Assembly (NCBI RefSeq): GCF_056746865.1
Contig: NZ_CM163382.1
DNA: 64,000 nt
Strand: one strand, 5' to 3'
Below are positions 44,319-54,790 of the stretch, piece after piece. Within the stretch, counting starts at the first letter, position 1. Every line of letters begins with the position of its first letter. The position numbers and the translations under genes were made by a program. The notes below the pieces were generated by a model, which was given only the letters and a program-made list of their open reading frames with translations, had not been told where the DNA came from and did no database searches.

Positions 44319-44839
44319 TTTCAGACAGATATTATTTCCGTGAATCCCCCGCCACCTTTCCGGTGCGCGGGGTTTTGTCTTTTTTCACCGGGAATACATG
44401 TATGAATCCGTCTGATGCCATTGAGGCAATTGAAAAACCGCTCTCCTCCCTGCCTTACTCACTTTCCCGTCACATCCTGGAACATCTGCGCAAACTCACC
44501 AGTCACGAACCCGTGCCTGGCATTATGGGTAAAAGCGGGGCCGGTAAATCCTCACTCTGTAATGCGCTGTTTCAGGGGGAGGTCACCCCGGTCAGTGATG
44601 TTCACGCCGGCCCCCGGGAAGTGCAGCGCTTCCGTCTTGCAAAATGGCATCTGAATCGATCGCAGTTTGGCATTCGAATCGATCATGATTTGGCATCCAT
44701 CTCCGATCACAGTTTGGCATCACAATCGATCACGATTTGGCATGCTTCCGATCATTGATTGGCATCCTGCCAGTCACTCCGGGAATTAACTCTTTTCACC
44801 ACAGTCTCCATTGCCGTGTTTAAACCAGTGGAGACGTCA

Positions 44840-46405
44840 ATGTCCAGAAAGAGAAAATCCAGGAGCACTATGGAAACCTGTTTTAAGATTCTTCAGCTCA
44901 AGTTCGACAAGAAGCTGACTAACCGTTGTATCGGACTGACGTTACACATCAGCGCCTCAACCGTTTTTGAGGTTCTTGCCCGCTTCAAAGCCTCTTCTCT
45001 GTCATGGCCATTACCTGCTGATATATCCCATGACACGCTGGAGAAACTCATTTTTCCGCCCAAAGACACCTTTGCATCAGAGCTTGTAATGCCTGACATG
45101 TTGTACCTCGATACGGAAATGAGAAAACCAGGTGTGACGCGGCAACTGTTGTGGATGGAATACAAGGCACAGGCGGGTAACAAAGCGATGGGATACTCGC
45201 ACTTCTGCCGTTGCTACCGGGAGTGGAAAAAAACGCGACGTCTCTCCATGCGCCAGGAGCATCGTGCCGGCGAAAAGCTTTTTATCGACTTCTGTGGTCC
45301 TACGGTTCCTGTTATTAATCCGGACACCGGTGAGATACGCCGCGTGGCAATCTTCGTGGCCGTAATGGGGGCGTCCAACTATACCTACGTTGAAGCGTGC
45401 GAAGGTCAGGACATGATGTCATGGTTAAATGCCCACAGCCGTTGCCTGACCTTCCTGGGCGGCGTACCGAAGCTGCTCATCCCCGATAACCTCAGAAGCG
45501 CAGTGAAAAAGGCCGATCGATATGAGCCTGTCATCAACGACAGTTATCAGGCACTGGCTGAGCACTATGGCACGGTTATCATCCCGGCCCGACCACGCAA
45601 ACCTAAAGATAAACCAAAAGCAGAAAACGGCGTCCTCATCGTCGAACGATGGCTTCTTGCCCGCATCCGTAATGAAACCTTCCACACGCTCAGGGCGCTG
45701 AATGCGCGCCTTAGGGAGTTACTGACAGACATGAATAACCGGCCAATGAAGGGGTACGGCAATCAAACCCGTGCAGAACGCTTCCGCATACTGGATGCGC
45801 CAGCACTCTCTCCGCTGCCTCTGGCACCTTATGAATACACGGAATACAAAGCTGTGAAGGTTGGCCCTGACTACCACGTTGAATATGCCCGTCACTGGTA
45901 CTCCGTTCCACACGAACTGGTCGGTCAGCGTCTGTCACTGAAGGCGGGGCAGTCGGTGGTACAGCTCTGGCACAAGGGGCAGTGTGTGGCGCAACATCCG
46001 CGCAGCACACATGAATATAAACACACAACCAATCCGCTTCACATGCCAGAGCGCCACCGGCAGCACGGGACATGGACACCGGAACGCCTGATCGAGCAGG
46101 GAAAACGTACGGGCCCGTCCACAGGCCGGGTGGTTGAATCCATGCTGAAGGCAAAACCCCATCCGGAACTGGCTTATCGTGCAGTTCTGGGGCTGCTGGC
46201 ACTTCAGAAAAAATACGGCCCGGAACGGCTGGAAAAGGCCTGTTACGTTGCCCTGCACTATAACGCCCCTGACAGACGCTTTATCGACAATCTGCTGCGT
46301 CACCATCGGGAGAACCTGGAGCTTCCATTATCCCGCCAGGGCGAACAACATCCGGCATATGCTTCAGAGCATGAAAACCTGCGTGGTCCGGGCTACTACC
46401 ACTGA
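44840..46405 (+). CDS. istA: IS21-family transposase IstA
   Basis: HTH N-terminus and DDE core (...LFIDFCGPTVPVINPDTGEIRRVAIFVAVMGASNYTYVEA...). The ATG at 44840 follows GGAGACG. Confidence 0.85.
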   Translation: MSRKRKSRSTMETCFKILQLKFDKKLTNRCIGLTLHISASTVFEVLARFKASSLSWPLPADISHDTLEKLIFPPKDTFASELVMPDMLYLDTEMRKPGVTRQLLWMEYKAQAGNKAMGYSHFCRCYREWKKTRRLSMRQEHRAGEKLFIDFCGPTVPVINPDTGEIRRVAIFVAVMGASNYTYVEACEGQDMMSWLNAHSRCLTFLGGVPKLLIPDNLRSAVKKADRYEPVINDSYQALAEHYGTVIIPARPRKPKDKPKAENGVLIVERWLLARIRNETFHTLRALNARLRELLTDMNNRPMKGYGNQTRAERFRILDAPALSPLPLAPYEYTEYKAVKVGPDYHVEYARHWYSVPHELVGQRLSLKAGQSVVQLWHKGQCVAQHPRSTHEYKHTTNPLHMPERHRQHGTWTPERLIEQGKRTGPSTGRVVESMLKAKPHPELAYRAVLGLLALQKKYGPERLEKACYVALHYNAPDRRFIDNLLRHHRENLELPLSRQGEQHPAYASEHENLRGPGYYH

Positions 46406-46421
46406 CAGAAGGAACAACAGT

Positions 46422-47177
46422 ATGAGTGATAACCTGTTAAACAAACTGACCCAACTGAAACTCCCGGCGATGGCCGGGAGCCTGATACGGCAGCGGGAAA
46501 CGCCTCAGACCTACGACGAACTGTCGTTCGAGGAAAGGCTGACGCTGCTGGTTGATGACGAGCTTCTGAGCAGGGAAAACAGCCGTGTGGCACGGTTGAG
46601 AAAAAATGCCGGCCTGAAATACCAGGCAACACCGGAAGGGCTGCGCTATCCGGCCTCAAGAGGTCTGCGGGCTGAACAGATGAGAGAACTGCTGAACGGC
46701 CACTACATAACCCACAGGAAAAACCTGCTGATAACCGGTCCGACAGGATGTGGCAAGAGCTGGATAGCCAATGCGCTGGGCGAACAGGCATGTCGACAGA
46801 AACACAGCGTCCGGTACTGTAGAACCGGGCGATTACTGGAACAACTGGCTCAGGGACGTGTTGATGGCAGCTGGCTGAAATATCTGAAACAGTTGCAAAA
46901 AATACAGGTTCTAATCCTGGACGATCTGGGGCTGGAACAGTTAAGTAACGCCCAGTGTAATGACCTTCTGGAGCTCATAGAGGATCGTTACGGACAAAGC
47001 AGCACGATAGTGGTAAGCCAGTTCCCGGTAGATAAATGGCATGGTCTGATGGAGAACCCAACAACAGCAGATGCCATCCTGGACAGACTGGTACATAACT
47101 CACACCGGGTGGTCCTTCAGGGAGAGTCACTGAGGAAAAATCCCCCGGTAGTGGAAAGCAGCGAAAAAACGCGTTAA
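46422..47177 (+). CDS. istB: IS21-family helper ATPase IstB, 251 aa
   Basis: Starts MSDNLLNKLTQLKLPAMAGSL and has the Walker A motif GPTGCGKSWIANALG. The upstream in-frame extension to 46179 overlaps istA and is rejected. Confidence 0.9.
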   Translation: MSDNLLNKLTQLKLPAMAGSLIRQRETPQTYDELSFEERLTLLVDDELLSRENSRVARLRKNAGLKYQATPEGLRYPASRGLRAEQMRELLNGHYITHRKNLLITGPTGCGKSWIANALGEQACRQKHSVRYCRTGRLLEQLAQGRVDGSWLKYLKQLQKIQVLILDDLGLEQLSNAQCNDLLELIEDRYGQSSTIVVSQFPVDKWHGLMENPTTADAILDRLVHNSHRVVLQGESLRKNPPVVESSEKTR

Positions 47178-48007
47178 AAAGCGGTAGAAAAAGTTAAGTT
47201 CCCGGTTGATCGAATGGATGCGAATCGCTGATCGGACTTCGATGCCAATCCGTGATCGAATAGAGCGGAATACGCATCCGTCTGAATGGCCATGGTCACA
47301 GCATGGTTATCACTGACCTGCCCGGGGTGGGCGAGAGCCGGGACAGGGATGCAGAGTATGAAGCCCTGTACCGTGACATTCTGCTCGAACTGGACCTGGT
47401 ACTGTGGCTGATTAAAGCCGATGACCGTGCCCTGTCTGTGGATGAGTATTTCTGGCGACACATCCTGCACCGGGGACATCAGCGGGTACTGTTTGTGGTG
47501 ATGCAGGCCGATAAAACGGAGCCCTGCCATGAATGGGATATGGCCGGTATTCAGCCTTCTCCCGCACAGGCACAGAACATTCGCGAAAAAACGGAGGCGG
47601 TATTCCGTCTGTTCCGGCCCGTACATCGGGTTGTTGCCGTATCGGCCCGCACCGGCTGGGAACTGGATACGCTGGTCAGTGCGCTCATGACAGCACTTCC
47701 CGACCATGCCGCCAGTCCCCTGATGACCCGCCTGCAGGACGAGCTGCGCACGGAGTCTGTCCGGTCTCAGGCCCGTGAACAGTTTACCGGTGCGGTGGAC
47801 CGGATATTTGACACGGCGGAGAGCGTCTGCATTGCCTCTGTTGCACGCACGGTTCTGCGCGCCGTCCGTGACTCGGTGGTCTCTGTTGCCCGCGCGGTAT
47901 GGAACTGGATTTTCTTCTGAACCCGGTGGTGATGTACCAGGCTGTTGTTACAGATTTTTAACTCCATGAAAACACTATGCAAACGCAGCCATACCCGGGT
48001 TGTCCCC

Positions 48008-48036
48008 TTGCGTTGTGTTTCTCAAGTTAATAGAAT
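48008..48036 (+). promoter_or_regulatory. Predicted sigma70 promoter of the dynamin-like/patatin operon
   Basis: TTGCGT (48008-48013), 17-bp spacer, TAGAAT (48031-48036). The predicted transcription start is about 48043. Confidence 0.5.
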
Positions 48037-48038
48037 AC

Positions 48039-48076
48039 ATCGATCGTTACTATCATATCGATCGTTATAAACGATC
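48039..48076. promoter_or_regulatory. OxyR-like operator carrying three Dam GATC sites
   Basis: The sequence ATCGatcgttaCTATcatatcgATCGttataaaCGAT matches 13 of 16 core positions of the OxyR consensus ATAGntnnnanCTAT-N7-ATAGntnnnanCTAT at 11-bp phasing. GATC sites lie at 48042-45, 48060-63 and 48073-76, each inside CGATCGTT. The 12-bp palindrome AAACGATCGTTT lies at 48069-48080. Confidence 0.55.
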
Positions 48077-48137
48077 GTTTGTAGTAAATGACCTCCTCCG
48101 TGGTTGTCATGAAAATGCGTCTTAGGAAGGTTAAATA

Positions 48138-50534
48138 ATGCACGAAAAGAACATCGCCCTGCTTTGTGATGAAGCCGACCGACTTTTGCAACTGAACATT
48201 AATCTGCTCCGGCAAATGGTTGAGGAGCCAGATGTGTTATCTGACAGTAAGAACGAAAACAGACTGCTTTTTGATAAACAGAAAGCACTGAAAAGAATTG
48301 AGGAGCTGGAGGGCGAACAAATCAAAACCGCCCGCAGGGAGATGGTGCTGGCTGTTGTCGGCACGATGAAAGCAGGCAAATCAACCACCATCAACGCCAT
48401 TGTGGGGCAGGAAATTCTGCCTAACCGTAACCGCCCCATGACCTCTGTACCGACGCTCATCCGCCACGTTCCCGGAAAAACTGAGCCGGTTCTCCATCTG
48501 GAACATATTCAGCCTGTCCGCAATTTATTAATCACACTGCAGGAAAAACTCGCCACCCCGGCAGGACAGCAGGTCGCACAGACCCTGCAGCAAACCGGGG
48601 ATACCCGCGAACTGCTGGATATTCTGACGGATGATGGCTGGCTCAAAAATGAATACCACGGGGAGGAGGAAATCTTTACCGGACTGGCATCGTTAAACGA
48701 TCTGGTTCGTCTTGCTGCGGCAATGGGGACTGAATTTCCTTTTGATGAATACGCAGAAGTGCAGAAACTGCCGGTGATCGACGTGGAATTCAGCCATCTG
48801 GTGGGGATGGATGCATGCCAGGGAACACTCACACTGCTGGATACCCCCGGCCCTAATGAGGCCGGACAACCGCAGATGGAAGTGATGATGCGGGATCAAC
48901 TGCAGAAAGCCTCTGCGGTTCTGGCTGTGATGGATTACACCCAGATGAACTCAAAAGCGGATGAAGACGTCCGTAAAGAGCTTAATGCCATTGCTGACGT
49001 ATCAGCCGGCCGCCTGTTTGTACTGGTCAATAAATTTGATGAGAAAGACCGCAATGGCGATGGGGCAGATGCCGTACGCCAGAAAGTTCCGGCAATGCTG
49101 AACAGCGATGTGCTGCCCGCCTCCCGCGTTTATCCCGGATCCTCACGCCAGGCATACCTGGCTAACCGTGCGCTTCATGAGTTACGGAAAAACGGAACCC
49201 TTCCTGTTGATGAAGCCTGGGTCGATGATTTTATCAGAGGTGCCTTCGGTTGCATGAAAAAAGAATACGTCTGTAAAGACAGTGAACTGGCAACTGAAGG
49301 GGCGACAGACCTGTGGGAAGGCTCACTTATCGATCAACTGATAACGGAAGTCATACAGAGCTCACATTCCAGAGCTGCGGCACTGGCGGTTGACTCTGCC
49401 GCCGCAAAACTGATGCAGAATGCAGAAAATATCAGTGAATACCTGTTGTTACGCCATCAGGGGCTACAGCAAAGCATTCAGTCACTGCAGTCGCATATCA
49501 CCAGCCTGCTTGCGGATATCCGGGAAATCGCGGACTGTCAGGAGCAGATGACCACTGATGTCAGAATGGCCATGGAGGAGATCGATACTAAAACCCGGGA
49601 ATTACTGACGGGGGTCTGCACCTCACTGGAAGAGGAGCTGAATGACTATTTCAGAAGCGGTAAACGCAAAGAACAGCAAATGCTGGAGGAAGAAGACGCA
49701 GAACAACGAAGGTCTCAGTCCGGATTATGGGGGAAAATTTCTCAATGGTCCGGTATCAACAACCAGGGCCGGGAGGATTACAGGAAACGAGATTTTGCCC
49801 CGGACAGCCCCGAAATAAAATTCAGTGATCGCAGGGAAGCCCTTGAACTGATGACGCAAATCGAATCGACCGTGACCAGCCTGCACCGTGAGGCTGAAGC
49901 ACAGTTCCGGCCTGAGCTGGAGAAAATCGTCAGCGGGATTGAAACAGGTTTTCGTGGCACGGCCCTGTACGCCACAGAAAACATTGCCGGTCGCATCAAT
50001 GCCCGCCTGGAGGATGAGGGCTTTACCGTAAAAATCAGTTTTCCGGCAGTCAGCCAGTTACAGACCCGGCTCGCGGTAAAAATAAATCTGAGTGCGCTTA
50101 TGGAGGAAAGAACGGAGACCGTCACCCGTCGCCGTCGGCAGAGTGGCGTATGGGGAACCGTTTGTCGATGGTTTGGCACCAGTGACCTGGGCTGGGAAAA
50201 CTATGACGAGGATGTGAGTCGCAGCGTGATCAATATCAACAAGGTCAGAGAGGAAGTTATGTCACTGACCCGGGCATATTTCGGGGAGCTGCAGGCATCC
50301 ATTGAGCAGGATATTAACCAGCCCGTCCGCCAGGAAATCGATGCCTTTTTCTGCGCATTCAGGGAGAAAGTTGAACAACTGCGTAACACGCTGATTCAGA
50401 GCTCTGAAGATCATAAACGCGATCAGCAGGCGCAGGAACGGCTTACCGGGCGACTTCAGGCATTAAATGAAAGGGTTCCTGAGCTCATTACTGACAGTAA
50501 GGCGCTGAGGGAAGAGCTGGAGACAATGCTGTGA
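48138..50534 (+). CDS. Bacterial dynamin-like GTPase, CrfC/YjdA type (798 aa)
   Basis: GTPase motifs: G1 GTMKAGKST (res 75-83), G3 DTPG (235-238), G4 NKFD (298-301). The block EMVLAVVGTMKAGKSTTINAIVGQEILPNRNRPMTSVPTLIRHVPG closely resembles my recollection of E. coli CrfC. A long helical/coiled-coil C-terminal half follows. RBS AGGAAGG. Confidence 0.8.
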   Translation: MHEKNIALLCDEADRLLQLNINLLRQMVEEPDVLSDSKNENRLLFDKQKALKRIEELEGEQIKTARREMVLAVVGTMKAGKSTTINAIVGQEILPNRNRPMTSVPTLIRHVPGKTEPVLHLEHIQPVRNLLITLQEKLATPAGQQVAQTLQQTGDTRELLDILTDDGWLKNEYHGEEEIFTGLASLNDLVRLAAAMGTEFPFDEYAEVQKLPVIDVEFSHLVGMDACQGTLTLLDTPGPNEAGQPQMEVMMRDQLQKASAVLAVMDYTQMNSKADEDVRKELNAIADVSAGRLFVLVNKFDEKDRNGDGADAVRQKVPAMLNSDVLPASRVYPGSSRQAYLANRALHELRKNGTLPVDEAWVDDFIRGAFGCMKKEYVCKDSELATEGATDLWEGSLIDQLITEVIQSSHSRAAALAVDSAAAKLMQNAENISEYLLLRHQGLQQSIQSLQSHITSLLADIREIADCQEQMTTDVRMAMEEIDTKTRELLTGVCTSLEEELNDYFRSGKRKEQQMLEEEDAEQRRSQSGLWGKISQWSGINNQGREDYRKRDFAPDSPEIKFSDRREALELMTQIESTVTSLHREAEAQFRPELEKIVSGIETGFRGTALYATENIAGRINARLEDEGFTVKISFPAVSQLQTRLAVKINLSALMEERTETVTRRRRQSGVWGTVCRWFGTSDLGWENYDEDVSRSVININKVREEVMSLTRAYFGELQASIEQDINQPVRQEIDAFFCAFREKVEQLRNTLIQSSEDHKRDQQAQERLTGRLQALNERVPELITDSKALREELETML

Positions 50535-51436
50535 CTTCACCATTTATTCAACAAATTGCTGATAACCGGGTATGTCAGGTACTCACCTGTCTTCCTGAAA
50601 AATTTGTGGTTGATTTCGCAAACGGAATCGATGTTGCACAGGAGCATATCCGCACGGCCGGAGAGCGCACGTTCTTCCGGCGTTTAAAAGAGGGGCTGAC
50701 CGGCGAAGGCGCTGCACGGCAGAATGCCATCAATGCGTCGCTTGCACAGGGCGTTGAGGCGTCCCTGCGCTGGCTGACGGAGATGACAACGTCACTTGCC
50801 ACCACAAACTACGCGATTACCCGGGTAAACGACAGGGTCAGTTCACTGGTCAGTGATACAGCCAGGCTGGCGCATTATTCCGCAGATACGCGGGAGCAGT
50901 TACTCACCCTGGCCGATCAGGTTCACCATAAACTGAATCATCTTGAAGAAAAACTCCACCGTGTTGACCAGGTTCAGCGGGCGCAGTTACATCTTGAGCA
51001 GATATTCTCATGGTGGAGCGCCGGGCGATATGCGTCATTTTCCCCTGCCGGACGTTGTTATGTGGCACTTGAAGAGCTTCGCTGGGGCGCGTTTGGTGAT
51101 GTGATACGTCAGAGCGAAACAGGCCAGGTTAACCAGCTACTGGATATTCTCAGACATAAAGCATTAACGCAGATGGCACAGGAGAGTGGCGGTAGTGCAA
51201 CCGTGCGTCTGAACACTCTGGACTGGCTTGGTGGTCAGGGCCGGGAGCAGGCAGATAACGAGTGGCATGACGCGATTAACTGGCTGGGAGACTGGTGCAG
51301 TGAAGAGCAGCATCCGGTGATCTGGTCAACCACGCAGGCTGCAGAACACTTACCGGTTCGCATGCCTCGCCTCTGCTCTGCAGAACGCCTCTCTGAAAGT
51401 ATGGTCGATGAAATATTTCAGAAGGGGGCTGCATGA
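50531..51436 (+). CDS. Helical protein of unknown function, translationally coupled partner of the dynamin-like GTPase (301 aa); positional equivalent of yjcZ
   Basis: The GTG start overlaps the upstream stop (GTGA at 50531-50534). No catalytic motif recognised. The coiled-coil-like stretch is LTLADQVHHKLNHLEEKLHRVDQVQRAQLHLEQ. Confidence 0.6.
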   Translation: MTSPFIQQIADNRVCQVLTCLPEKFVVDFANGIDVAQEHIRTAGERTFFRRLKEGLTGEGAARQNAINASLAQGVEASLRWLTEMTTSLATTNYAITRVNDRVSSLVSDTARLAHYSADTREQLLTLADQVHHKLNHLEEKLHRVDQVQRAQLHLEQIFSWWSAGRYASFSPAGRCYVALEELRWGAFGDVIRQSETGQVNQLLDILRHKALTQMAQESGGSATVRLNTLDWLGGQGREQADNEWHDAINWLGDWCSEEQHPVIWSTTQAAEHLPVRMPRLCSAERLSESMVDEIFQKGAA

Positions 51437-52503
51437 GTACAGAAATGAAAACGGGGCTGGTGCTGTCCGGTGGCGGGGCGGTGGGCGCTTATCAGGCGGG
51501 AGTGGTTAAGGCACTGGCAGAGTGTGGTACACAGATCAGCATGGTTTCAGGGGCCAGCATTGGCGCATTCAATGGTGCCATTATCGCGGCCTCTCCCGAT
51601 CTGTCAGAAGCTGCCGTACGCCTGGAGGCGCTCTGGGATCATCTGGGGAATAATCAGGTGCTGTCGGTAAACAGATTGGTTTACTTTTCATTGCTGAAAA
51701 AATTGTTCCAGGCAATGAACCTCTGCCAGATCCCCGGACGTGCAGGAGCACTGCTTACGACGCTTCTTCGCCATATATCGACAATCAACGGGTTTGACAA
51801 TCTGATGGCTCAGCCGTTGTTGTCAGATGAGCCCCTGACAGCGCTGATGGATCATTATCTTGATACTGATGCTCTGGCAGACGGGCTACCGCTGTATGTG
51901 TCGCTGTACCCCACAGAAGGGGGCATGCAGGATATTATTGACTGCATTCGTGCTGAACTGGGTGTCGGAACCACGAAAAACGCCGTTTTTCAGCATATCC
52001 AGAGCCTGCCCCGCGGACAGCAGAAAGAGGCTCTGCTTGCGTCAGCCGCGCTGCCCCTGCTGTTCCGTCCCCGTGAGGTTCAGGGGACAATGTTCGGTGA
52101 TGGTGGTATGGGAGGATGGCGAAATATGCAGGGAAATACCCCTGTGACGCCTCTGGTCGATGCCGGATGCAATATGGTGATTGTGACGCATCTGAGTGAG
52201 GGTTCTTTATGGGATCGCCAGGCTTTTCCGGACACCACAATCCTTGAGATCCGTCCCCGGAAAAGGCTGAAATATGCAGGTGATGGTGGCAACAGCGGCG
52301 GTCTGCTCAGTTTTACATCGGCACATACCGACGCCTGGCGTCAGCAGGGCTATGAAGACACGATGCTGGCGATGGAGCATATCCGGAAACCGCTGGCAGC
52401 ACGTCAGGCACTGACCCGGTCAGAGGCGGTATTGCAGAAAAGCCTGGATATAACGGAAGAGGCAGATTTGGCACTGAGAAACGCGATGGCCCGGATTAAA
52501 TAA
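51433..52503 (+). CDS. Patatin-like phospholipase (356 aa)
   Basis: The ATG overlaps the upstream stop (ATGA at 51433-51436). Motifs: oxyanion GGGAVG (13-18), nucleophile elbow G-A-S42-I-G, catalytic D223-G-G. Confidence 0.85.
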   Translation: MSTEMKTGLVLSGGGAVGAYQAGVVKALAECGTQISMVSGASIGAFNGAIIAASPDLSEAAVRLEALWDHLGNNQVLSVNRLVYFSLLKKLFQAMNLCQIPGRAGALLTTLLRHISTINGFDNLMAQPLLSDEPLTALMDHYLDTDALADGLPLYVSLYPTEGGMQDIIDCIRAELGVGTTKNAVFQHIQSLPRGQQKEALLASAALPLLFRPREVQGTMFGDGGMGGWRNMQGNTPVTPLVDAGCNMVIVTHLSEGSLWDRQAFPDTTILEIRPRKRLKYAGDGGNSGGLLSFTSAHTDAWRQQGYEDTMLAMEHIRKPLAARQALTRSEAVLQKSLDITEEADLALRNAMARIK

Positions 52504-52519
52504 AGACGCCCCAAAGAAA

Positions 52520-52545
52520 CGCCACCGCCTGTGGTGGTGTTTTTC
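52520..52545 (+). terminator. Rho-independent terminator of the three-gene operon
   Basis: CGCCACC (52520-52526) pairs with GGTGGTG (52633 is not used; pairing partner is 52533-52539), loop GCCTGT, followed by T5. Confidence 0.7.
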
Positions 52546-52833
52546 CTGTCTGGTGTTATTGAAAATATTTTCATATATATATTACCTGAGAGAAAGTTTT
52601 ACCCCTCACCTGTCAATTCACTCACTGGAAATTTAATTATGAAATTACCTGTAAAGTTATTAATGAGCCTTATATCTCTGGTCAGCGTTATTGCACGTGC
52701 CGGGGAATATAAAAATTACAGCCGGGATGAAATAAAATACTGGCGATATACATCATACAAGGGGGGGAAACTTCCGGAAGGTTTCACTGATGAGAAATTT
52801 TCCAGCGCCATTTACAACGGAAGAATATTTACA

Positions 52834-53322
52834 ATGAAACGTTTACATACCCTTATGTTATTTCTGGCGGTTCTGTTCACGGGCTTTAACTTTAACGCAG
52901 AAGCGGCTACCGTAAAACAAGCTCTTAGTTGTAACCCGGAAGCCTGGGCTGAACAACCTGGAGCGTGTCCATCAACGTACGAGTTGTACGAAGGTGACGC
53001 TACCTACAAAGCCGCTATCGACAAAGCATTAAAACCGGTCGGACTGAGCGGCATGTTCGGTAAAGGCGGCTATATGGATGGCCCTGGTGGAGGTATCACG
53101 CCAGTAAACATTAACGGTACAGTCTGGTTCCAGGGCGACGGTTGCAAAGCCAATACCTGCGGCTGGGACTTTATCGTAACACTCTATAACCCAAAAACCC
53201 ATGAAGTTGTTGGCTACCGTTACTTTGGTTTAGATGACCCGGCCTACCTGGTTTGGTTCGGTGAAATTGGCGTGCATGAATTCGCGTATCTGGTGAAAAA
53301 CTACGTAGCTGCGGTTAACTAA
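52834..53322 (+). CDS. Secreted Ivy-family-like protein (putative lysozyme inhibitor), 162 aa
   Basis: Signal peptide MKRLHTLMLFLAVLFTGFNFNAEA. The loop GCKANTCGWDFIVTLYNPKTHEVVG parallels the Ivy CKPHDCG loop and its following strands. The ORF is open upstream to 52531, so the start is uncertain. Confidence 0.5.
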   Translation: MKRLHTLMLFLAVLFTGFNFNAEAATVKQALSCNPEAWAEQPGACPSTYELYEGDATYKAAIDKALKPVGLSGMFGKGGYMDGPGGGITPVNINGTVWFQGDGCKANTCGWDFIVTLYNPKTHEVVGYRYFGLDDPAYLVWFGEIGVHEFAYLVKNYVAAVN

Positions 53323-53337
53323 TTTAAGGAGTCTATC

Positions 53338-53748
53338 ATGAAAACTTTTATCAAAACTTTACTCGTTGCTGTAACTATTCTGTTCTCTGTCTTCGCTACT
53401 GCGAAACAAGTAAAACTGCCAAATAACATCAAATACGTTAATACTACAGAAGCGTTTTCCTGTACCGAAATTGACGGTATGAATTGCCAGACAAAGAATC
53501 AGTTCAACTATAAAGATAACAGCTATGTTTTCGTGCTTGAACGTGGTGGTGCCTGGTGCTACGACTACACTGTCTCGGTAGTTAACCTGAAAACCGGGAA
53601 AGCACAAATGATTGAATACGGGGACAATCAACTGTGCTCAGGTAGCAACAAACCGTTCTTCGAAATCAAAAATGGCGTACCGACGGTAGGAGTCATCGAC
53701 ACATCCGGAAAACCTGTCGTTGTAGCCCAGGACAAACTTAAAATCTAA
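53338..53748 (+). CDS. Small secreted Cys-containing protein of unknown function, 136 aa
   Basis: Signal peptide MKTFIKTLLVAVTILFSVFATA. An RBS AAGGAG lies 6 nt upstream. The gene starts 15 nt after the previous stop. Confidence 0.6.
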   Translation: MKTFIKTLLVAVTILFSVFATAKQVKLPNNIKYVNTTEAFSCTEIDGMNCQTKNQFNYKDNSYVFVLERGGAWCYDYTVSVVNLKTGKAQMIEYGDNQLCSGSNKPFFEIKNGVPTVGVIDTSGKPVVVAQDKLKI

Positions 53749-53891
53749 GGAGTAAACCATGCGTTTCTCTGCACATTATTAATATCAAAGGTAAATACAG
53801 CCCCAGCCATTGTTACCGGAAAGCCGCTTAATGCGTGGCTCGCCAGTGAAAGGCCTCTCAGACAATAAACCTTATTCATTTCACCCGTCAG

Positions 53892-53923
53892 GCCGCGTCT
53901 TCTCCGGGAGACGCGGCTTTTTT
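53892..53923 (+). terminator. Rho-independent terminator
   Basis: GCCGCGTCT (53892-53900) pairs with AGACGCGGC (53909-53917), followed by T6. Confidence 0.75.
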
Positions 53924-53968
53924 CATTTATTGCACCAGTAAATCTTAACCACCGATAAGGAGCAAAGT

Positions 53969-54790
53969 ATGCGATTAGCAAGTCGTTTTGGTTATGCTGC
54001 AAACCAGATACGCCGTGACCGTCCGCTGACACATGAAGAACTGATACGCCATGTACCCAGTATTTTTGGGGAAGACCGGCACACCTCCCGCAGTGAACGG
54101 TATGCGTACATTCCCACCATTACCGTCCTGGAAAATCTGCAGCGGGAAGGCTTTCAGCCGTTCTTCGCCTGCCAGACCCGTGTGCGCGACCCGGGCCGCC
54201 GGGGATACACAAAACACATGCTGCGTCTGCGGCGGGCCGGAGAGATAAACGGAGAACATGTCCCTGAAATTATTCTGCTCAACTCTCATGACGGTACCTC
54301 CAGCTACCAGATGCTGCCGGGTTACTTCAGGTTCGTCTGCCAGAACGGGTGCGTCTGTGGCCAGTCTCTGGGGGAAGTGCGTGTTCCACACCGGGGAAAT
54401 GTAGTGGAGAAAGTTATCGAAGGGGCTTACGAGGTGGTGGGCGTGTTTGACCGGATAGAGGAGAAGCGTGATGCCATGCAGTCGCTGGTCCTGCCGCCAC
54501 CGGCACGCCAGGCGCTGGCACAGGCGGCACTGACTTACCGTTATGGTGACGAACATCAGCCCGTCACCACCGCCGACATTCTGACGCCGCGACGCCGGGA
54601 GGATTACGGTAAGGACCTGTGGAGCGCATATCAGACCATCCAGGAGAATATGCTGAAAGGCGGGATTTCCGGTCGCAGTGCAAAAGGAAAACGTATCCAT
54701 ACCCGGGCCATTCACAGCATTGATACCGACATTAAGCTCAATCGCGCATTGTGGGTGATGGCAGAAACGATGCTGGAGAGCCTGCGCTGA
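53969..54790 (+). CDS. DUF932-family protein (YfjQ/YkfF... island core), 273 aa
   Basis: MRLASRFGYAANQIRRDRPLTHEELIRHVPSIFGEDRHTSRSERYAYIPT... This is typical of the gene preceding the antirestriction gene in CP4-type islands. Confidence 0.8.
   Translation: MRLASRFGYAANQIRRDRPLTHEELIRHVPSIFGEDRHTSRSERYAYIPTITVLENLQREGFQPFFACQTRVRDPGRRGYTKHMLRLRRAGEINGEHVPEIILLNSHDGTSSYQMLPGYFRFVCQNGCVCGQSLGEVRVPHRGNVVEKVIEGAYEVVGVFDRIEEKRDAMQSLVLPPPARQALAQAALTYRYGDEHQPVTTADILTPRRREDYGKDLWSAYQTIQENMLKGGISGRSAKGKRIHTRAIHSIDTDIKLNRALWVMAETMLESLR

What the first reader, a model, noticed from the sequence alone, without database searches (positions are those of the whole stretch)
48008..52545. Coupled operon of a CrfC/YjdA-type dynamin-like GTPase, a helical partner and a patatin-like phospholipase: candidate undescribed membrane-attacking or defence system
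What the sequence shows:
- Three co-oriented ORFs (798, 301 and 356 aa) are joined by 4-nt start/stop overlaps: GTGA at 50531-50534 and ATGA at 51433-51436.
- One predicted promoter (48008-48036) and one clean terminator (52520-52545) bracket them.
- ORF1 has complete GTPase motifs: GTMKAGKST 75-83, DTPG 235-238, NKFD 298-301. About 480 aa of helical sequence follow.
- ORF3 has every patatin catalytic element: GGGxxG 13-18, G-x-S42-x-G and D223-G-G.
- ORF2 has no motif I can recognise.

Established knowledge:
- E. coli K-12 carries the dynamin-like crfC (yjdA) next to yjcZ, with no lipase.
- Bacterial dynamin-like proteins remodel or repair membranes (BDLP, DynA, LeoA).
- The LeoA/LeoBC pair has been reported as an anti-phage system (Eleos).
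- Patatin phospholipases are membrane-destroying effectors in CBASS (CapV-type) and other abortive-infection systems.

Inference:
- A GTPase-gated or GTPase-localised phospholipase module is likely.
- It lies in an island full of defence and counter-defence cargo (antirestriction, RadC, a TA pair, a YeeP GTPase) and in the slot that holds flu in K-12.
- I do not know of a described dynamin plus YjcZ-like plus patatin system.
Basis: partly seen in the sequence, partly recalled or inferred. Interest (0 to 1): 0.9.

Follow-up and report, generated by a model that had tools for sequence, protein, structure and literature searches.

The report
Dynamin-like GTPase, partner, phospholipase cassette
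A three-gene cassette found in nearly half of complete E. coli genomes and in at least six bacterial phyla sits among known anti-phage genes; it is probably an untested defence system in which a GTP-driven switch controls a membrane-degrading enzyme.

Summary
Three translationally coupled genes (48138-52503, + strand) encode:
- a dynamin-type GTPase, 33% identical over its full length to E. coli RdcA/CrfC;
- a YjcZ/RdcB-family helical protein;
- a cytoplasmic patatin phospholipase.

All GTPase and lipase catalytic motifs are present.

The cassette is common and mobile:
- At least 80% of it is present in 2443 of 5426 complete E. coli genomes.
- The same gene order occurs in Pseudomonas, Vibrio, Acinetobacter, epsilonproteobacteria, cyanobacteria, Firmicutes, Acidobacteriota and Binatota.
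- It is an autonomous unit inserted in islands. Its neighbours include BREX, McrBC, Zorya, Gabija-like helicases, Mrr, and often a WYL regulator.
- Neighbours of unrelated patatin genes almost never match defence profiles.

None of the three proteins meets a PADLOC model or a curated NCBIfam defence model. No paper in the searchable library tests the cassette. A 2026 transcriptomics paper noticed the operon and found it strongly induced in a lysogen.

My best reading (about 0.5) is an abortive-infection-type defence system. The GTPase and its partner would gate the lipase.

A simple tree also places the core RdcA within the lipase-linked family, which hints that RdcA/RdcB is a domesticated derivative.

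No function has been shown experimentally.

The parts
48008..48056 (+). Promoter-like region.
   Evidence: Both are weak consensus matches, and their number is no higher than in shuffled sequence. The 220-nt upstream region is conserved in a diverged E. coli copy, L096.
48039..48079 (+). Three copies of CGATCGTT (at 48042, 48060 and 48072), including a 19-nt palindrome at 48059-48077. This is a possible operator that overlaps or follows the -10 element.
   Evidence: Read directly. The hairpin was also flagged. The motif is nearly identical in L096. Its function was not tested.
48138..50534 (+). ORF1, 798 aa: a dynamin-like GTPase and paralogue of RdcA/CrfC. It has an N-terminal G domain and about 480 aa of helical sequence. 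It also carries a conserved basic, Trp-rich motif (RRRRQSGVWGTVCRWFG..DLGWENY, about aa 665-693).
   Evidence: G1, switch I, G3 and G4 are invariant or nearly so across 23 family members. It is 33% identical to K-12 RdcA over the full length. The NCBIfam CrfC equivalog scores 556 bits, below its 1146-bit cut-off.
50531..51436 (+). ORF2, 301 aa: a YjcZ/RdcB-family helical partner protein.
   Evidence: Pfam YjcZ 4.1e-70, covering profile positions 1-272 of 272. It is 30% identical to K-12 RdcB. The AlphaFold2 model has pLDDT 78 and shows a helix of about 105 residues (59-163) plus a small C-terminal part. No informative fold match was found.
51433..52503 (+). ORF3, 356 aa: a cytoplasmic patatin-like phospholipase. 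It has the oxyanion-hole motif GGGAVG, the nucleophile Ser42 and Asp223. A variable insert spans 95-123, and residues 296-355 form a single long C-terminal helix.
   Evidence: The catalytic residues are invariant in 21 homologues of 47-91% identity. The closest solved folds are PlpD, the CBASS effectors CapV and CapE, VipD and ExoU. There is no signal peptide or transmembrane segment.
52520..52549 (+). Intrinsic-terminator-like hairpin plus T-run, directly after the ORF3 stop codon.

Best explanation
The region is a self-contained, horizontally mobile three-gene cassette. It is most likely an anti-phage defence system of the abortive-infection type.

Proposed mechanism:
1. ORF1, an RdcA-like dynamin-type GTPase, and ORF2, its RdcB/YjcZ-like helical partner, form the sensor/switch complex.
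2. ORF3, a soluble patatin phospholipase, is the effector and is held inactive until triggered.
3. A trigger changes the nucleotide state or assembly of the GTPase. Candidate triggers are an infection-linked fall in GTP, a membrane perturbation or a phage protein.
4. The complex then brings the lipase to the inner face of the cytoplasmic membrane, or unlocks it there. A conserved basic, Trp-rich motif in ORF1 may help with membrane contact.
5. Phospholipid hydrolysis then collapses the membrane before phage progeny mature.

What is shown:
- the gene architecture and translational coupling;
- intact, conserved catalytic motifs in both enzymes;
- conserved three-gene synteny across phyla;
- mobile-island and defence-island context;
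- paralogy to RdcA/RdcB;
- a patatin fold close to the CBASS effectors.

What is taken from the literature: RdcA binds RdcB, and the GTP state of RdcA gates its action on a membrane partner.

What is inferred: the ORF1-ORF2-ORF3 complex, the trigger, lipase activation and the anti-phage outcome.
For: - Anatomy: 4-nt overlaps and ribosome-binding sites. All three Pfam domains score above threshold.
- Conservation: the GTPase motifs are conserved in 23 family members down to 22% identity. The patatin GGG motif, Ser42 and Asp223 are invariant. dN/dS is 0.10-0.34.
- Synteny: every locus from 185,579 species genomes that had a close ORF3 homologue (phmmer E<=1e-43) and upstream DNA carried dynamin-YjcZ-patatin in the same order. 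That was 20 loci across Gamma-, Beta- and Epsilonproteobacteria, Cyanobacteria, Firmicutes, Acidobacteriota and Binatota. One stand-alone clade in Synergistaceae is the exception. The same order also occurs in Pseudomonas, Vibrio, Enterobacter, Plesiomonas, Pectobacterium, Morganella, Allochromatium and Methylomonas.
- Context: neighbours include BREX BrxL and PglZ, McrBC, SIR2, BrxR, Mrr, PDDEXK_4, Uma2 and Fic, integrases and a relaxase.
- Neighbour scan: the +-4 genes around 16 triad loci hit 102 PADLOC families at E<=1e-10, including ZorA2 at 2.5e-188, ZorE2, GajB twice and WYL four times. The +-4 genes around 14 control patatin loci hit 4 families. The Pfam scans agree.
- Regulators: a WYL regulator lies within about 4 kb in 8 distinct triad loci and in none of the control loci.
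- Paralogy: ORF1 is 33% identical to RdcA and ORF2 is 30% identical to RdcB. In PMC6510439, RdcA binds RdcB, docks on a membrane domain of DgcE, and its GTP-bound form appears inactive.
- Effector fold: PlpD, CapV, CapE, VipD and ExoU. The VipD hits include entry 4kyi, in which VipD is bound to the GTPase Rab5.
- Not phage-borne: there is no homologue in 50,697 phage genomes.
Against: - There is no experimental test of phage resistance, toxicity or lipase activity anywhere in the searchable literature.
- No PADLOC model matches convincingly. The system is either unknown or not a defence system.
- Some loci have non-defence neighbours. In Methylomonas the cassette lies between FecIR and TonB-receptor genes. 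In Pectobacterium it lies next to biosynthetic genes.
- The only characterised relatives, RdcA and RdcB, are signalling proteins, not immune proteins.
- Known dynamin-based defences (DynA, Eleos) do not use a lipase.
- High expression in lysogens is evidently tolerated, so activation would have to be post-translational.
- The ORF1-ORF2-ORF3 interaction was not modelled, because no multimer tool and no deep ORF1 alignment were available.
- The neighbour comparison counts redundant PADLOC families. It is a contrast between two sets, not a formal enrichment statistic.
Confidence: 0.5

Rival explanations
1. The cassette is a membrane repair or remodelling module, not a suicide module. Like B. subtilis DynA or LeoABC, the dynamin-like protein would seal, tether or vesiculate damaged membrane. 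The patatin would supply local lipid remodelling, producing lysolipids and curvature or clearing damaged lipids. Any phage effect would then be delayed lysis rather than abortive infection.
For: - ORF1 belongs to the dynamin family.
- It has a conserved basic, Trp-rich motif at about 85% of its length. From my own knowledge, this is roughly where BDLP carries its membrane paddle.
- DynA is reported to protect by maintaining membrane integrity, and LeoABC is linked to vesicle formation (cited in PMC12922286 and 10.1101/2022.05.11.491447).
- The PMC12922286 authors favour a model in which the dynamin-like protein is the active component.
Against: - RdcA-type proteins are described as soluble (PMC6510439).
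- ORF1 has no hydrophobic segment.
- The closest solved relatives of ORF3 are toxin-type or effector-type lipases (CapV, CapE, VipD, ExoU, PlpD), not housekeeping lipid-turnover enzymes.
- A housekeeping repair function would not predict carriage on islands, WYL regulators or patchy distribution.
Confidence: 0.17
2. The cassette is an accessory signalling paralogue of RdcA/RdcB. The island-encoded pair would act on host MASE1-type or other membrane signalling proteins, affecting c-di-GMP, biofilm or motility. The patatin would be a lipid-signal or membrane-composition output, giving the island's host a lifestyle benefit rather than immunity.
For: - The full-length paralogy to RdcA and RdcB. 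RefSeq names ORF2 a 'diguanylate cyclase regulator RdcB family protein'.
- The cassette is carried on islands that also encode adhesins such as cah and flu.
- Expression responds to lysogeny and growth medium.
Against: - The triad occurs in phyla where DgcE is not expected, and it always keeps the lipase with an intact catalytic dyad.
- Identity to RdcA and RdcB is only 30-33%.
- The neighbourhood is dominated by defence and mobile-element genes, not signalling genes. GGDEF and two-component genes appear in the control set, not in the triad set.
Confidence: 0.1
3. The cassette is an addiction (toxin-antitoxin-like) or competition module of the mobile element. The patatin would be a toxin restrained by the GTPase and its partner, stabilising the island or acting against competing elements. 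Alternatively it is a virulence-associated lipase.
For: - It is carried as cargo on CP4-44-type integrative elements alongside CbtA/CbeA toxin-antitoxin pairs and antirestriction genes.
- Up to 5 places per E. coli genome match the 4.7-kb query.
- The patatin relatives ExoU, VipD and PlpD are virulence lipases.
Against: - There is no signal peptide or secretion-system linkage (contexts).
- It is present in commensal and environmental bacteria, including cyanobacteria.
- It also occurs as an isolated cassette between core genes, for example ileS-lspA in Allochromatium. There, stabilising an island makes little sense.
- A two-protein, 1100-residue antitoxin would be unusual.
Confidence: 0.1

Closest known systems
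RdcA (YjdA/CrfC) and RdcB (YjcZ) of E. coli K-12, the GTPase partner system that activates the diguanylate cyclase DgcE
   Same: - ORF1 and ORF2 are full-length, collinear paralogues, 33% and 30% identical.
- The gene order and overlapping gene junction are the same.
- The G-domain motifs are the same, including the switch I threonine.
- A GTP-state-gated action on a membrane-associated partner is therefore likely.
   Different: - K-12 rdcAB has no lipase gene. proP follows it.
- ORF1 scores 556 bits against the CrfC equivalog, which requires 1146.
- ORF1 has an extra variable charged insert at about aa 505-560.
- The cassette is island-borne, not core.
- In a bootstrapped NJ tree, RdcA falls inside the lipase-linked family in 476 of 500 replicates. 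RdcAB may therefore be the derived form.
Eleos (LeoA/LeoBC), the two-dynamin anti-phage system
   Same: - A dynamin-superfamily GTPase that is enriched in defence islands.
- An intact P-loop is required in Eleos (10.1101/2022.05.11.491447).
   Different: - Eleos is two consecutive dynamin-like proteins with no YjcZ partner and no lipase.
- The PADLOC LeoBC model matches ORF1 only over about 60 residues around the P-loop, at E=8.6e-5.
CBASS patatin effectors (CapV, CapE)
   Same: - ORF3 has the same fold and the same Ser-Asp dyad.
- CapV and CapE are among its best structural matches, at E about 1e-8 to 1e-6.
- By analogy, ORF3 may play the same role as a latent membrane-degrading effector.
   Different: - There is no CD-NTase cyclase in or near the operon.
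- The NCBIfam CBASS_lipase model scores 18 bits against a 200-bit cut-off.
- Sequence identity is 13-16%.
- ORF3 has its own long C-terminal helix and a variable insert.
- The activator would be a protein complex, not a cyclic nucleotide.
VipD of Legionella, a patatin lipase that binds the GTPase Rab5, and ExoU, which is ubiquitin-activated
   Same: - Both have the patatin fold.
- PDB entry 4kyi shows VipD in complex with Rab5, a precedent for a patatin lipase binding a GTPase. That the binding activates VipD is from my own knowledge.
   Different: - VipD and ExoU are secreted effectors that act in eukaryotic hosts.
- Their C-terminal domains differ from that of ORF3.
- Rab5 is a small GTPase, not a dynamin-like one.
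B. subtilis DynA and Nostoc BDLP
   Same: - All are bacterial dynamin-like proteins.
- BDLP is the only PDB sequence match to the ORF1 family, and only over the G1/switch I region (E=7e-9 with a profile).
- DynA contributes to phage tolerance (PMC8844932, cited).
   Different: - No similarity is detectable beyond the P-loop region.
- DynA is a housekeeping, two-headed fusion protein.
- Neither is linked to a YjcZ partner or a lipase.

Membership tests
Dynamin superfamily (bacterial dynamin-like proteins) | Large GTPase domain with G1-G4 motifs that matches Pfam Dynamin_N above the gathering score | tested here: met
   Dynamin_N scores 66.9 bits against a 27-bit cut-off, covering profile positions 1-167 of 168. 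GTMKAGKST, NRNRPMT..PT, DTPGPNE and NKFD are conserved across the family.
Dynamin superfamily (bacterial dynamin-like proteins) | Helical stalk or bundle with a membrane-binding paddle, and nucleotide-dependent self-assembly | tested here: inconclusive
   About 480 aa follow the G domain and show weak spectrin, apolipoprotein and syntaxin-like helical matches. A conserved basic, Trp-rich motif lies at aa 665-693. There is no hydrophobic segment. No structure model of ORF1 could be made, because the homologue list gave only 93-100% identical sequences.
CrfC/RdcA equivalog (NCBIfam NF007368) | Whole-protein score at or above the curated cut-off of 1146 bits | tested here: not met
   The score is 556 bits over model positions 1-736 of 742. 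Identity to K-12 RdcA is 33%. ORF1 is a paralogue, not the same protein.
YjcZ/RdcB family (Pfam PF13990) | Full-length match above the gathering score, encoded directly downstream of an RdcA-type GTPase | tested here: met
   The score is 236.7 bits against a 27-bit cut-off, covering profile positions 1-272 of 272. ORF2 overlaps ORF1 by 4 nt. Identity to RdcB is 30%.
RdcA/RdcB functional system (activator of DgcE) | Physical interaction with the MASE1 domain of DgcE and control of c-di-GMP and curli | not testable with these tools
   This is known only from genetics in PMC6510439. Nothing in the sequence addresses it.
Patatin-like phospholipases (Pfam PF01734) | The GGGxxG oxyanion motif, the GxSxG nucleophile and the DGG/A aspartate on a patatin fold | tested here: met
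   Patatin scores 86.7 bits against a 27.7-bit cut-off. The motifs are invariant in 21 homologues. The AlphaFold2 model matches PlpD, CapV, VipD, ExoU and patatin itself.
Eleos (LeoA/LeoBC) defence system | Two adjacent dynamin-like genes that match the LeoA and LeoBC models | tested here: not met
   There is only one dynamin-like gene. LeoBC matches at E=8.6e-5 over residues 29-89 only, and there is no LeoA hit.
CBASS | A CD-NTase cyclase plus an effector that binds a cyclic nucleotide | tested here: not met
   There is no cyclase in the operon or its flanks. The CBASS_lipase model scores 18.3 bits against a 200-bit cut-off. PADLOC phospholipase effector models match only the N-terminal 60-70 residues, at E>=1e-4.
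Anti-phage defence systems in general | Preferential location next to known defence genes or on mobile islands | tested here: met
   Neighbours hit 102 PADLOC families, against 4 for controls. WYL regulators lie in 8 triad loci and in no control locus. This is a contrast between two sets, not a genome-wide statistic.
Anti-phage defence systems in general | Reduces phage plating or causes infection-dependent cell death when expressed | not testable with these tools
   No experimental report was found.

The most novel reading that the evidence does not exclude
The cassette is a previously unrecognised class of immune or stress-suicide system. In it, an RdcA-type dynamin-like GTPase, with its YjcZ partner, reads the cell's GTP pool or membrane state and licenses a patatin phospholipase to destroy the membrane. 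The chromosomal RdcA/RdcB pair, which switches on E. coli biofilm matrix production, would then be a domesticated offshoot of this mobile system that has lost the lipase.
Probability: 0.3. Interest if true: 0.85.

Novelty: new variant of a known kind. Interest (0 to 1): 0.7.

Why it matters
- Prevalence: the cassette is one of the most common uncharacterised operons in E. coli. It is at least 80% complete in 2443 of 5426 complete genomes. It occurs in O157:H7 strains and, per PMC12922286, on PAI-CFT073-aspV of strain MP1, and it recurs across phyla.
- New wiring for defence: if it is a defence system, a dynamin-like GTPase switch would control a phospholipase. That links two themes so far seen separately, the dynamin-based defences (Eleos, DynA) and the patatin effectors (CBASS).
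- Mechanism: it would give a tractable model for how RdcA/CrfC-type GTPases transmit nucleotide state to a partner. No structure of this subfamily exists.
- Evolution: it may explain the origin of the RdcA/RdcB input into E. coli's master biofilm cyclase.
- Practical relevance: it may affect phage therapy and phage typing of pathogenic E. coli.

Tried and rejected
- Eleos and CBASS membership were rejected on PADLOC and NCBIfam scores and on missing components.
- The YeeP-type GTPase upstream is not a fourth component. It is found only in E. coli and in one Pseudomonas island, not in other triad loci.
- The cassette is not phage-borne. There is no ORF2 homologue in 50,697 phage genomes, and only 3 IMG/VR contigs carry one, two of them at 84-99% identity to the window's ORF2.
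- The metagenome scan returned only near-identical (98-100%) copies, several from gut metagenomes, and added no diversity.
- The ORF1 homologue search listed only sequences 93-100% identical to the query. No deep alignment could be made, so ORF1 was not modelled.
- PDB sequence and profile searches found no solved relative of ORF2. For ORF1 they found only the BDLP P-loop region.
- Rfam found nothing in 47000-54000.
- The NJ analysis of YjcZ proteins had saturated distances (NaN), so its bootstrap figure is not used. An earlier Biopython bootstrap timed out.
- I first assumed the window equals NZ_CP091773 throughout. That is false. Only parts are collinear, and the insertion sequence in the GTPase gene differs.
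- The Synergistaceae patatins closest to ORF3 stand alone in a metabolic context. That clade is not part of the system.


Full report

Yes.
- The + strand carries three ORFs at 48138-50534 (798 aa), 50531-51436 (301 aa, GTG start) and 51433-52503 (356 aa).
- They are joined by the 4-nt overlaps GTGA and ATGA. Each start is preceded by a purine-rich ribosome-binding site.
- Pfam assigns Dynamin_N (2.8e-18), YjcZ (4.1e-70, full profile length) and Patatin (3e-24). All three are above the curated cut-offs.
- A hairpin with a T-run at 52520-52549 directly follows the last stop codon.
- The promoter is the weak point. Such sites are no more frequent here than in shuffled sequence.
- RefSeq annotates the same three genes as 'dynamin family protein', 'diguanylate cyclase regulator RdcB family protein' and 'patatin-like phospholipase family protein'.

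**2. What are the proteins?**

ORF1
- It aligns over its full length with E. coli K-12 RdcA (= YjdA/CrfC) at 33% identity.
- It reaches only 556 bits on the CrfC equivalog model, which requires 1146. It is a paralogue, not CrfC.

ORF2
It is a clear YjcZ/RdcB-family member, 30% identical to K-12 RdcB.
- In K-12 the rdcA-rdcB pair is followed by proP, with no lipase gene.
- According to PMC6510439, RdcA binds RdcB and docks on the membrane-embedded MASE1 domain of the diguanylate cyclase DgcE. [quoted passage not shown]
- Its AlphaFold2 model (pLDDT 78) is all-helical. It has one helix of about 105 residues and a small C-terminal part.

ORF3
- The model (pLDDT 75, pTM 0.76) has a patatin core, a low-confidence variable insert (95-123) and one long C-terminal helix (296-355).
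- Its best solved matches are PlpD, the CBASS effectors CapV and CapE, VipD and ExoU. The VipD matches include the VipD-Rab5 GTPase complex.

All three proteins
- None has a transmembrane segment or a signal peptide.

Conserved features in the ORF1 family
- The G1, switch I, G3 and G4 motifs are conserved down to 22% identity.
- So is a basic, Trp-rich motif at residues 665-693. This could be a membrane-contact element, but that is inference.

**3. How widespread is it, and is the three-gene unit conserved?**

Within E. coli
- 2621 of 5426 complete genomes have a match, and 2443 carry at least 80% of the region. Up to five places per genome match.
- Two diverged copies give dN/dS of 0.10-0.34 for all three genes.

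Outside E. coli
- ORF3 homologues of 47-69% identity keep the GGG motif, Ser42 and Asp223 invariant.
- I scanned one genome for each of 185,579 species and then searched the hits with phmmer.
  - Every locus with a close ORF3 homologue (E<=1e-43) and available upstream DNA had dynamin-YjcZ-patatin in the same order and on the same strand. That was 20 loci.
  - They come from Gamma-, Beta- and Epsilonproteobacteria, two cyanobacteria, two Firmicutes, Acidobacteriota and Binatota.
- One clade is an exception. The Synergistaceae patatins lack the C-terminal helix region and stand alone among metabolic genes.
- More distant patatins never have these partners, so I used them as controls.
- Nine further look-ups gave the same triad. 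They were in Pseudomonas, Vibrio, a JGI metagenome, Pectobacterium, Plesiomonas, Enterobacter, Allochromatium, Methylomonas and Morganella.
- The YjcZ family is small. It has 441 clusters at 50% identity among 1.84 billion representatives.

**4. Where does it sit?**

It always appears as an intact cassette, in very different places.

In E. coli
- It is cargo of CP4-44-type integrative elements. These carry a YeeP-type GTPase, cargo genes, then DUF932, an antirestriction gene, RadC, YeeT, CbeA/CbtA and DUF4942.
- The elements sit at several tRNA sites.
- In this window the upstream YeeP-type GTPase gene is split by an IS21-family element.
- In strain ETEC1747 the cassette follows the Ag43-like gene cah. 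It therefore co-exists with a flu-type gene rather than replacing it.
- In strain 95_0274 a DEAD-box helicase and a DNA methyltransferase lie just upstream.

Elsewhere, its neighbours include:
- BREX BrxL and PglZ plus a WYL regulator in Vibrio;
- McrBC, WYL and PDDEXK_4 in a metagenome contig;
- SIR2, BrxR, an ADP-ribosylglycohydrolase and an integrase in Pseudomonas;
- an integrase, WYL, Mrr and PDDEXK_4 in Enterobacter;
- Uma2 and Fic, wedged between ileS and lspA, in Allochromatium.

A controlled comparison
- I took the four genes on each side of 16 triad loci (110 proteins) and of 14 control patatin loci (110 proteins).
- At E<=1e-10 the triad neighbours hit 102 PADLOC families. These included ZorA2 at 2.5e-188, ZorE2, GajB twice, WYL four times and DRT-type helicases.
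- The control neighbours hit 4 families.
- The Pfam scans tell the same story. WYL, WCX, DEAD, ResIII and UvrD appear around triads, against response regulators and GNAT domains around controls.
- A WYL regulator lies within about 4 kb in 8 distinct triad loci, often directly upstream on the same strand. It lies in none of the control loci.
- Not every locus looks like a defence island.
- The PADLOC family count is inflated by redundant models. This is a strong contrast, not a formal statistic.
- The cassette is not carried by sequenced phages.

**5. Is it already known?**

- None of the three proteins meets a PADLOC v2 model or a curated NCBIfam defence model.
- It fails the tests for Eleos, which needs a second dynamin-like gene and LeoA/LeoBC matches. 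It also fails the tests for CBASS, which needs a cyclase and a CapV-type effector.
- Full-text searches found no paper that tests or names a dynamin plus YjcZ plus patatin system. The searches covered DefensePredictor and two recent domain-centric discovery papers.
- One paper has noticed it. [quoted passage not shown] - The authors note about 30% identity to the core RdcAB proteins.
  - They say they found no literature link between phospholipases and bacterial dynamins.
  - They speculate about population-level phage defence.
- The operon is therefore recorded but uncharacterised.

**6. How does it most likely work?**

- The facts are translational coupling, strict three-gene synteny, conserved catalytic sites in both enzymes, cytoplasmic location and the published RdcA/RdcB behaviour.
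- These point to a switch-plus-effector design. The GTPase and its partner would form the regulatory complex and the patatin would be the output.
- The defence-island context, the WYL regulators, the CapV-like fold and the induction in a lysogen make an abortive-infection defence system the best reading. I put it at about 0.5.
- The trigger is unknown. By analogy with RdcA, a fall in GTP during infection is an attractive and testable candidate.
- Rival readings are:
  - a DynA-like membrane-repair module that uses the lipase for remodelling (about 0.17);
  - an accessory RdcAB-like signalling module (about 0.1);
  - an addiction or virulence module (about 0.1).

**7. An evolutionary side result**

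- Identities of K-12 RdcA to lipase-linked GTPases are 23-36%. That is the same range as among the lipase-linked proteins themselves (22-42%).
- RdcA is closer to the gamma- and betaproteobacterial lipase-linked proteins than those are to the epsilonproteobacterial or cyanobacterial ones.
- In 476 of 500 NJ bootstraps, RdcA groups with the gamma- and betaproteobacterial lipase-linked proteins. It groups away from the epsilonproteobacterial, cyanobacterial, Acidobacteriota and Binatota ones.
- This suggests that the core RdcA/RdcB pair descends from the three-gene system by loss of the lipase.
- The analysis is simple: a distance method, one RdcA sequence and no outgroup. It needs a proper maximum-likelihood phylogeny.

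**8. Verdict**

- I rate it a new variant of a known kind. Defence systems with patatin effectors and dynamin-type GTPases in defence are both known, but this wiring is not described.
- Interest is 0.7. The cassette is very common in E. coli, conserved across phyla and cleanly testable. It also bears on the unexplained biology of RdcA/CrfC-type GTPases.
- Against that, it is one of many guilt-by-association candidates and has no phenotype yet.

Noticed in passing
window 48039-48079: Three copies of CGATCGTT lie between the promoter-like site and the ORF1 ribosome-binding site. One forms a perfect 19-nt palindrome (CGATCGTTATAAACGATCG). The repeats are nearly unchanged in a copy of the cassette that is about 96% identical (L096). 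This is a possible operator for an unidentified regulator. The E. coli loci examined here show no WYL regulator, unlike several triad loci in other genera.
   Followed up: partly
window 44759-47177 and 47303-47920: An IS21-family element (IstA-like 44759-46405, IstB-like ending at 47177) interrupts the YeeP-type GTPase gene just upstream of the cassette. Residues encoded at 47303-47920 are the GTPase's C-terminal remnant. The best-matching genome record has IS100 at the equivalent place, and the window is collinear with that record only in parts.
   Followed up: partly
window 52639-53322 and 53338-53748: Two small genes lie downstream of the terminator. Both have N-terminal signal peptides and no Pfam match. 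The first contains a second, internal signal-like segment (MKRLHTLMLFLAVLFTGFNFNAEA), so it may be two genes or a fusion. They are absent from the equivalent position in two other E. coli copies of the island.
   Followed up: partly
L091 5136-8239 (K-12 rdcA-rdcB) compared with triad loci L003-L056: The core RdcA groups inside the diversity of patatin-linked GTPases in 476 of 500 NJ bootstraps. This suggests that the RdcA/RdcB biofilm regulators derive from the three-gene cassette by loss of the lipase.
   Followed up: partly
L004 5682-6650; L090 5744-6619; L018 882-1814; L022 3996-4898; L009 4126-5268; L031 3355-4245; L003 3752-4624; L006 13964-14983: WYL-domain (BrxR/CapW-like) regulators lie next to the cassette in eight distinct loci from different genera. 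In four (L004, L090, L018, L022) the regulator abuts the cassette on the same strand. In L009 it is separated by one ORF. None is found near the control patatin genes.
   Followed up: yes
L022 4891-9039; L178 8617-8916: Two architectural variants were seen. Acinetobacter chengduensis has two tandem dynamin-like ORFs before the YjcZ gene. Methylomonas koyamae has an extra 99-aa ORF between the GTPase and YjcZ genes.
   Followed up: no
L021 9665-10957 (also L023-L025): Synergistaceae carry a patatin closely related to ORF3 (E about 1e-60) but with no GTPase or YjcZ genes. It lacks the C-terminal helix region and sits among formate dehydrogenase, FdhD and AcrB genes. It could serve as a natural partner-free comparator for the lipase.
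   Followed up: partly
L177 6551-13623: In Allochromatium the cassette, together with Uma2 and Fic genes, is wedged between ileS and lspA. From my own knowledge, these two are normally adjacent core genes. This is a small insertion hotspot.
   Followed up: no
window 49650-49820 (ORF1 residues about 505-560): ORF1 has a highly charged, poorly conserved insert that is absent from K-12 RdcA. It contains a degenerate copy (QSGLWGKISQWSG) of the conserved downstream Trp-rich motif (QSGVWGTVCRWFG).
   Followed up: partly
proteins P0004, P0028, P0054, P0057, P0071, P0123: Public protein sets contain many chimeric E. coli entries that fuse parts of the three genes (YjcZ+patatin, dynamin+patatin, YjcZ+dynamin). 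They also contain misleading names for family members, such as 'ferredoxin reductase', 'chemotaxis protein', 'dGTPase' and 'putative vimentin'. The chimeras are probably frameshifts, deletions or assembly artefacts.
   Followed up: no
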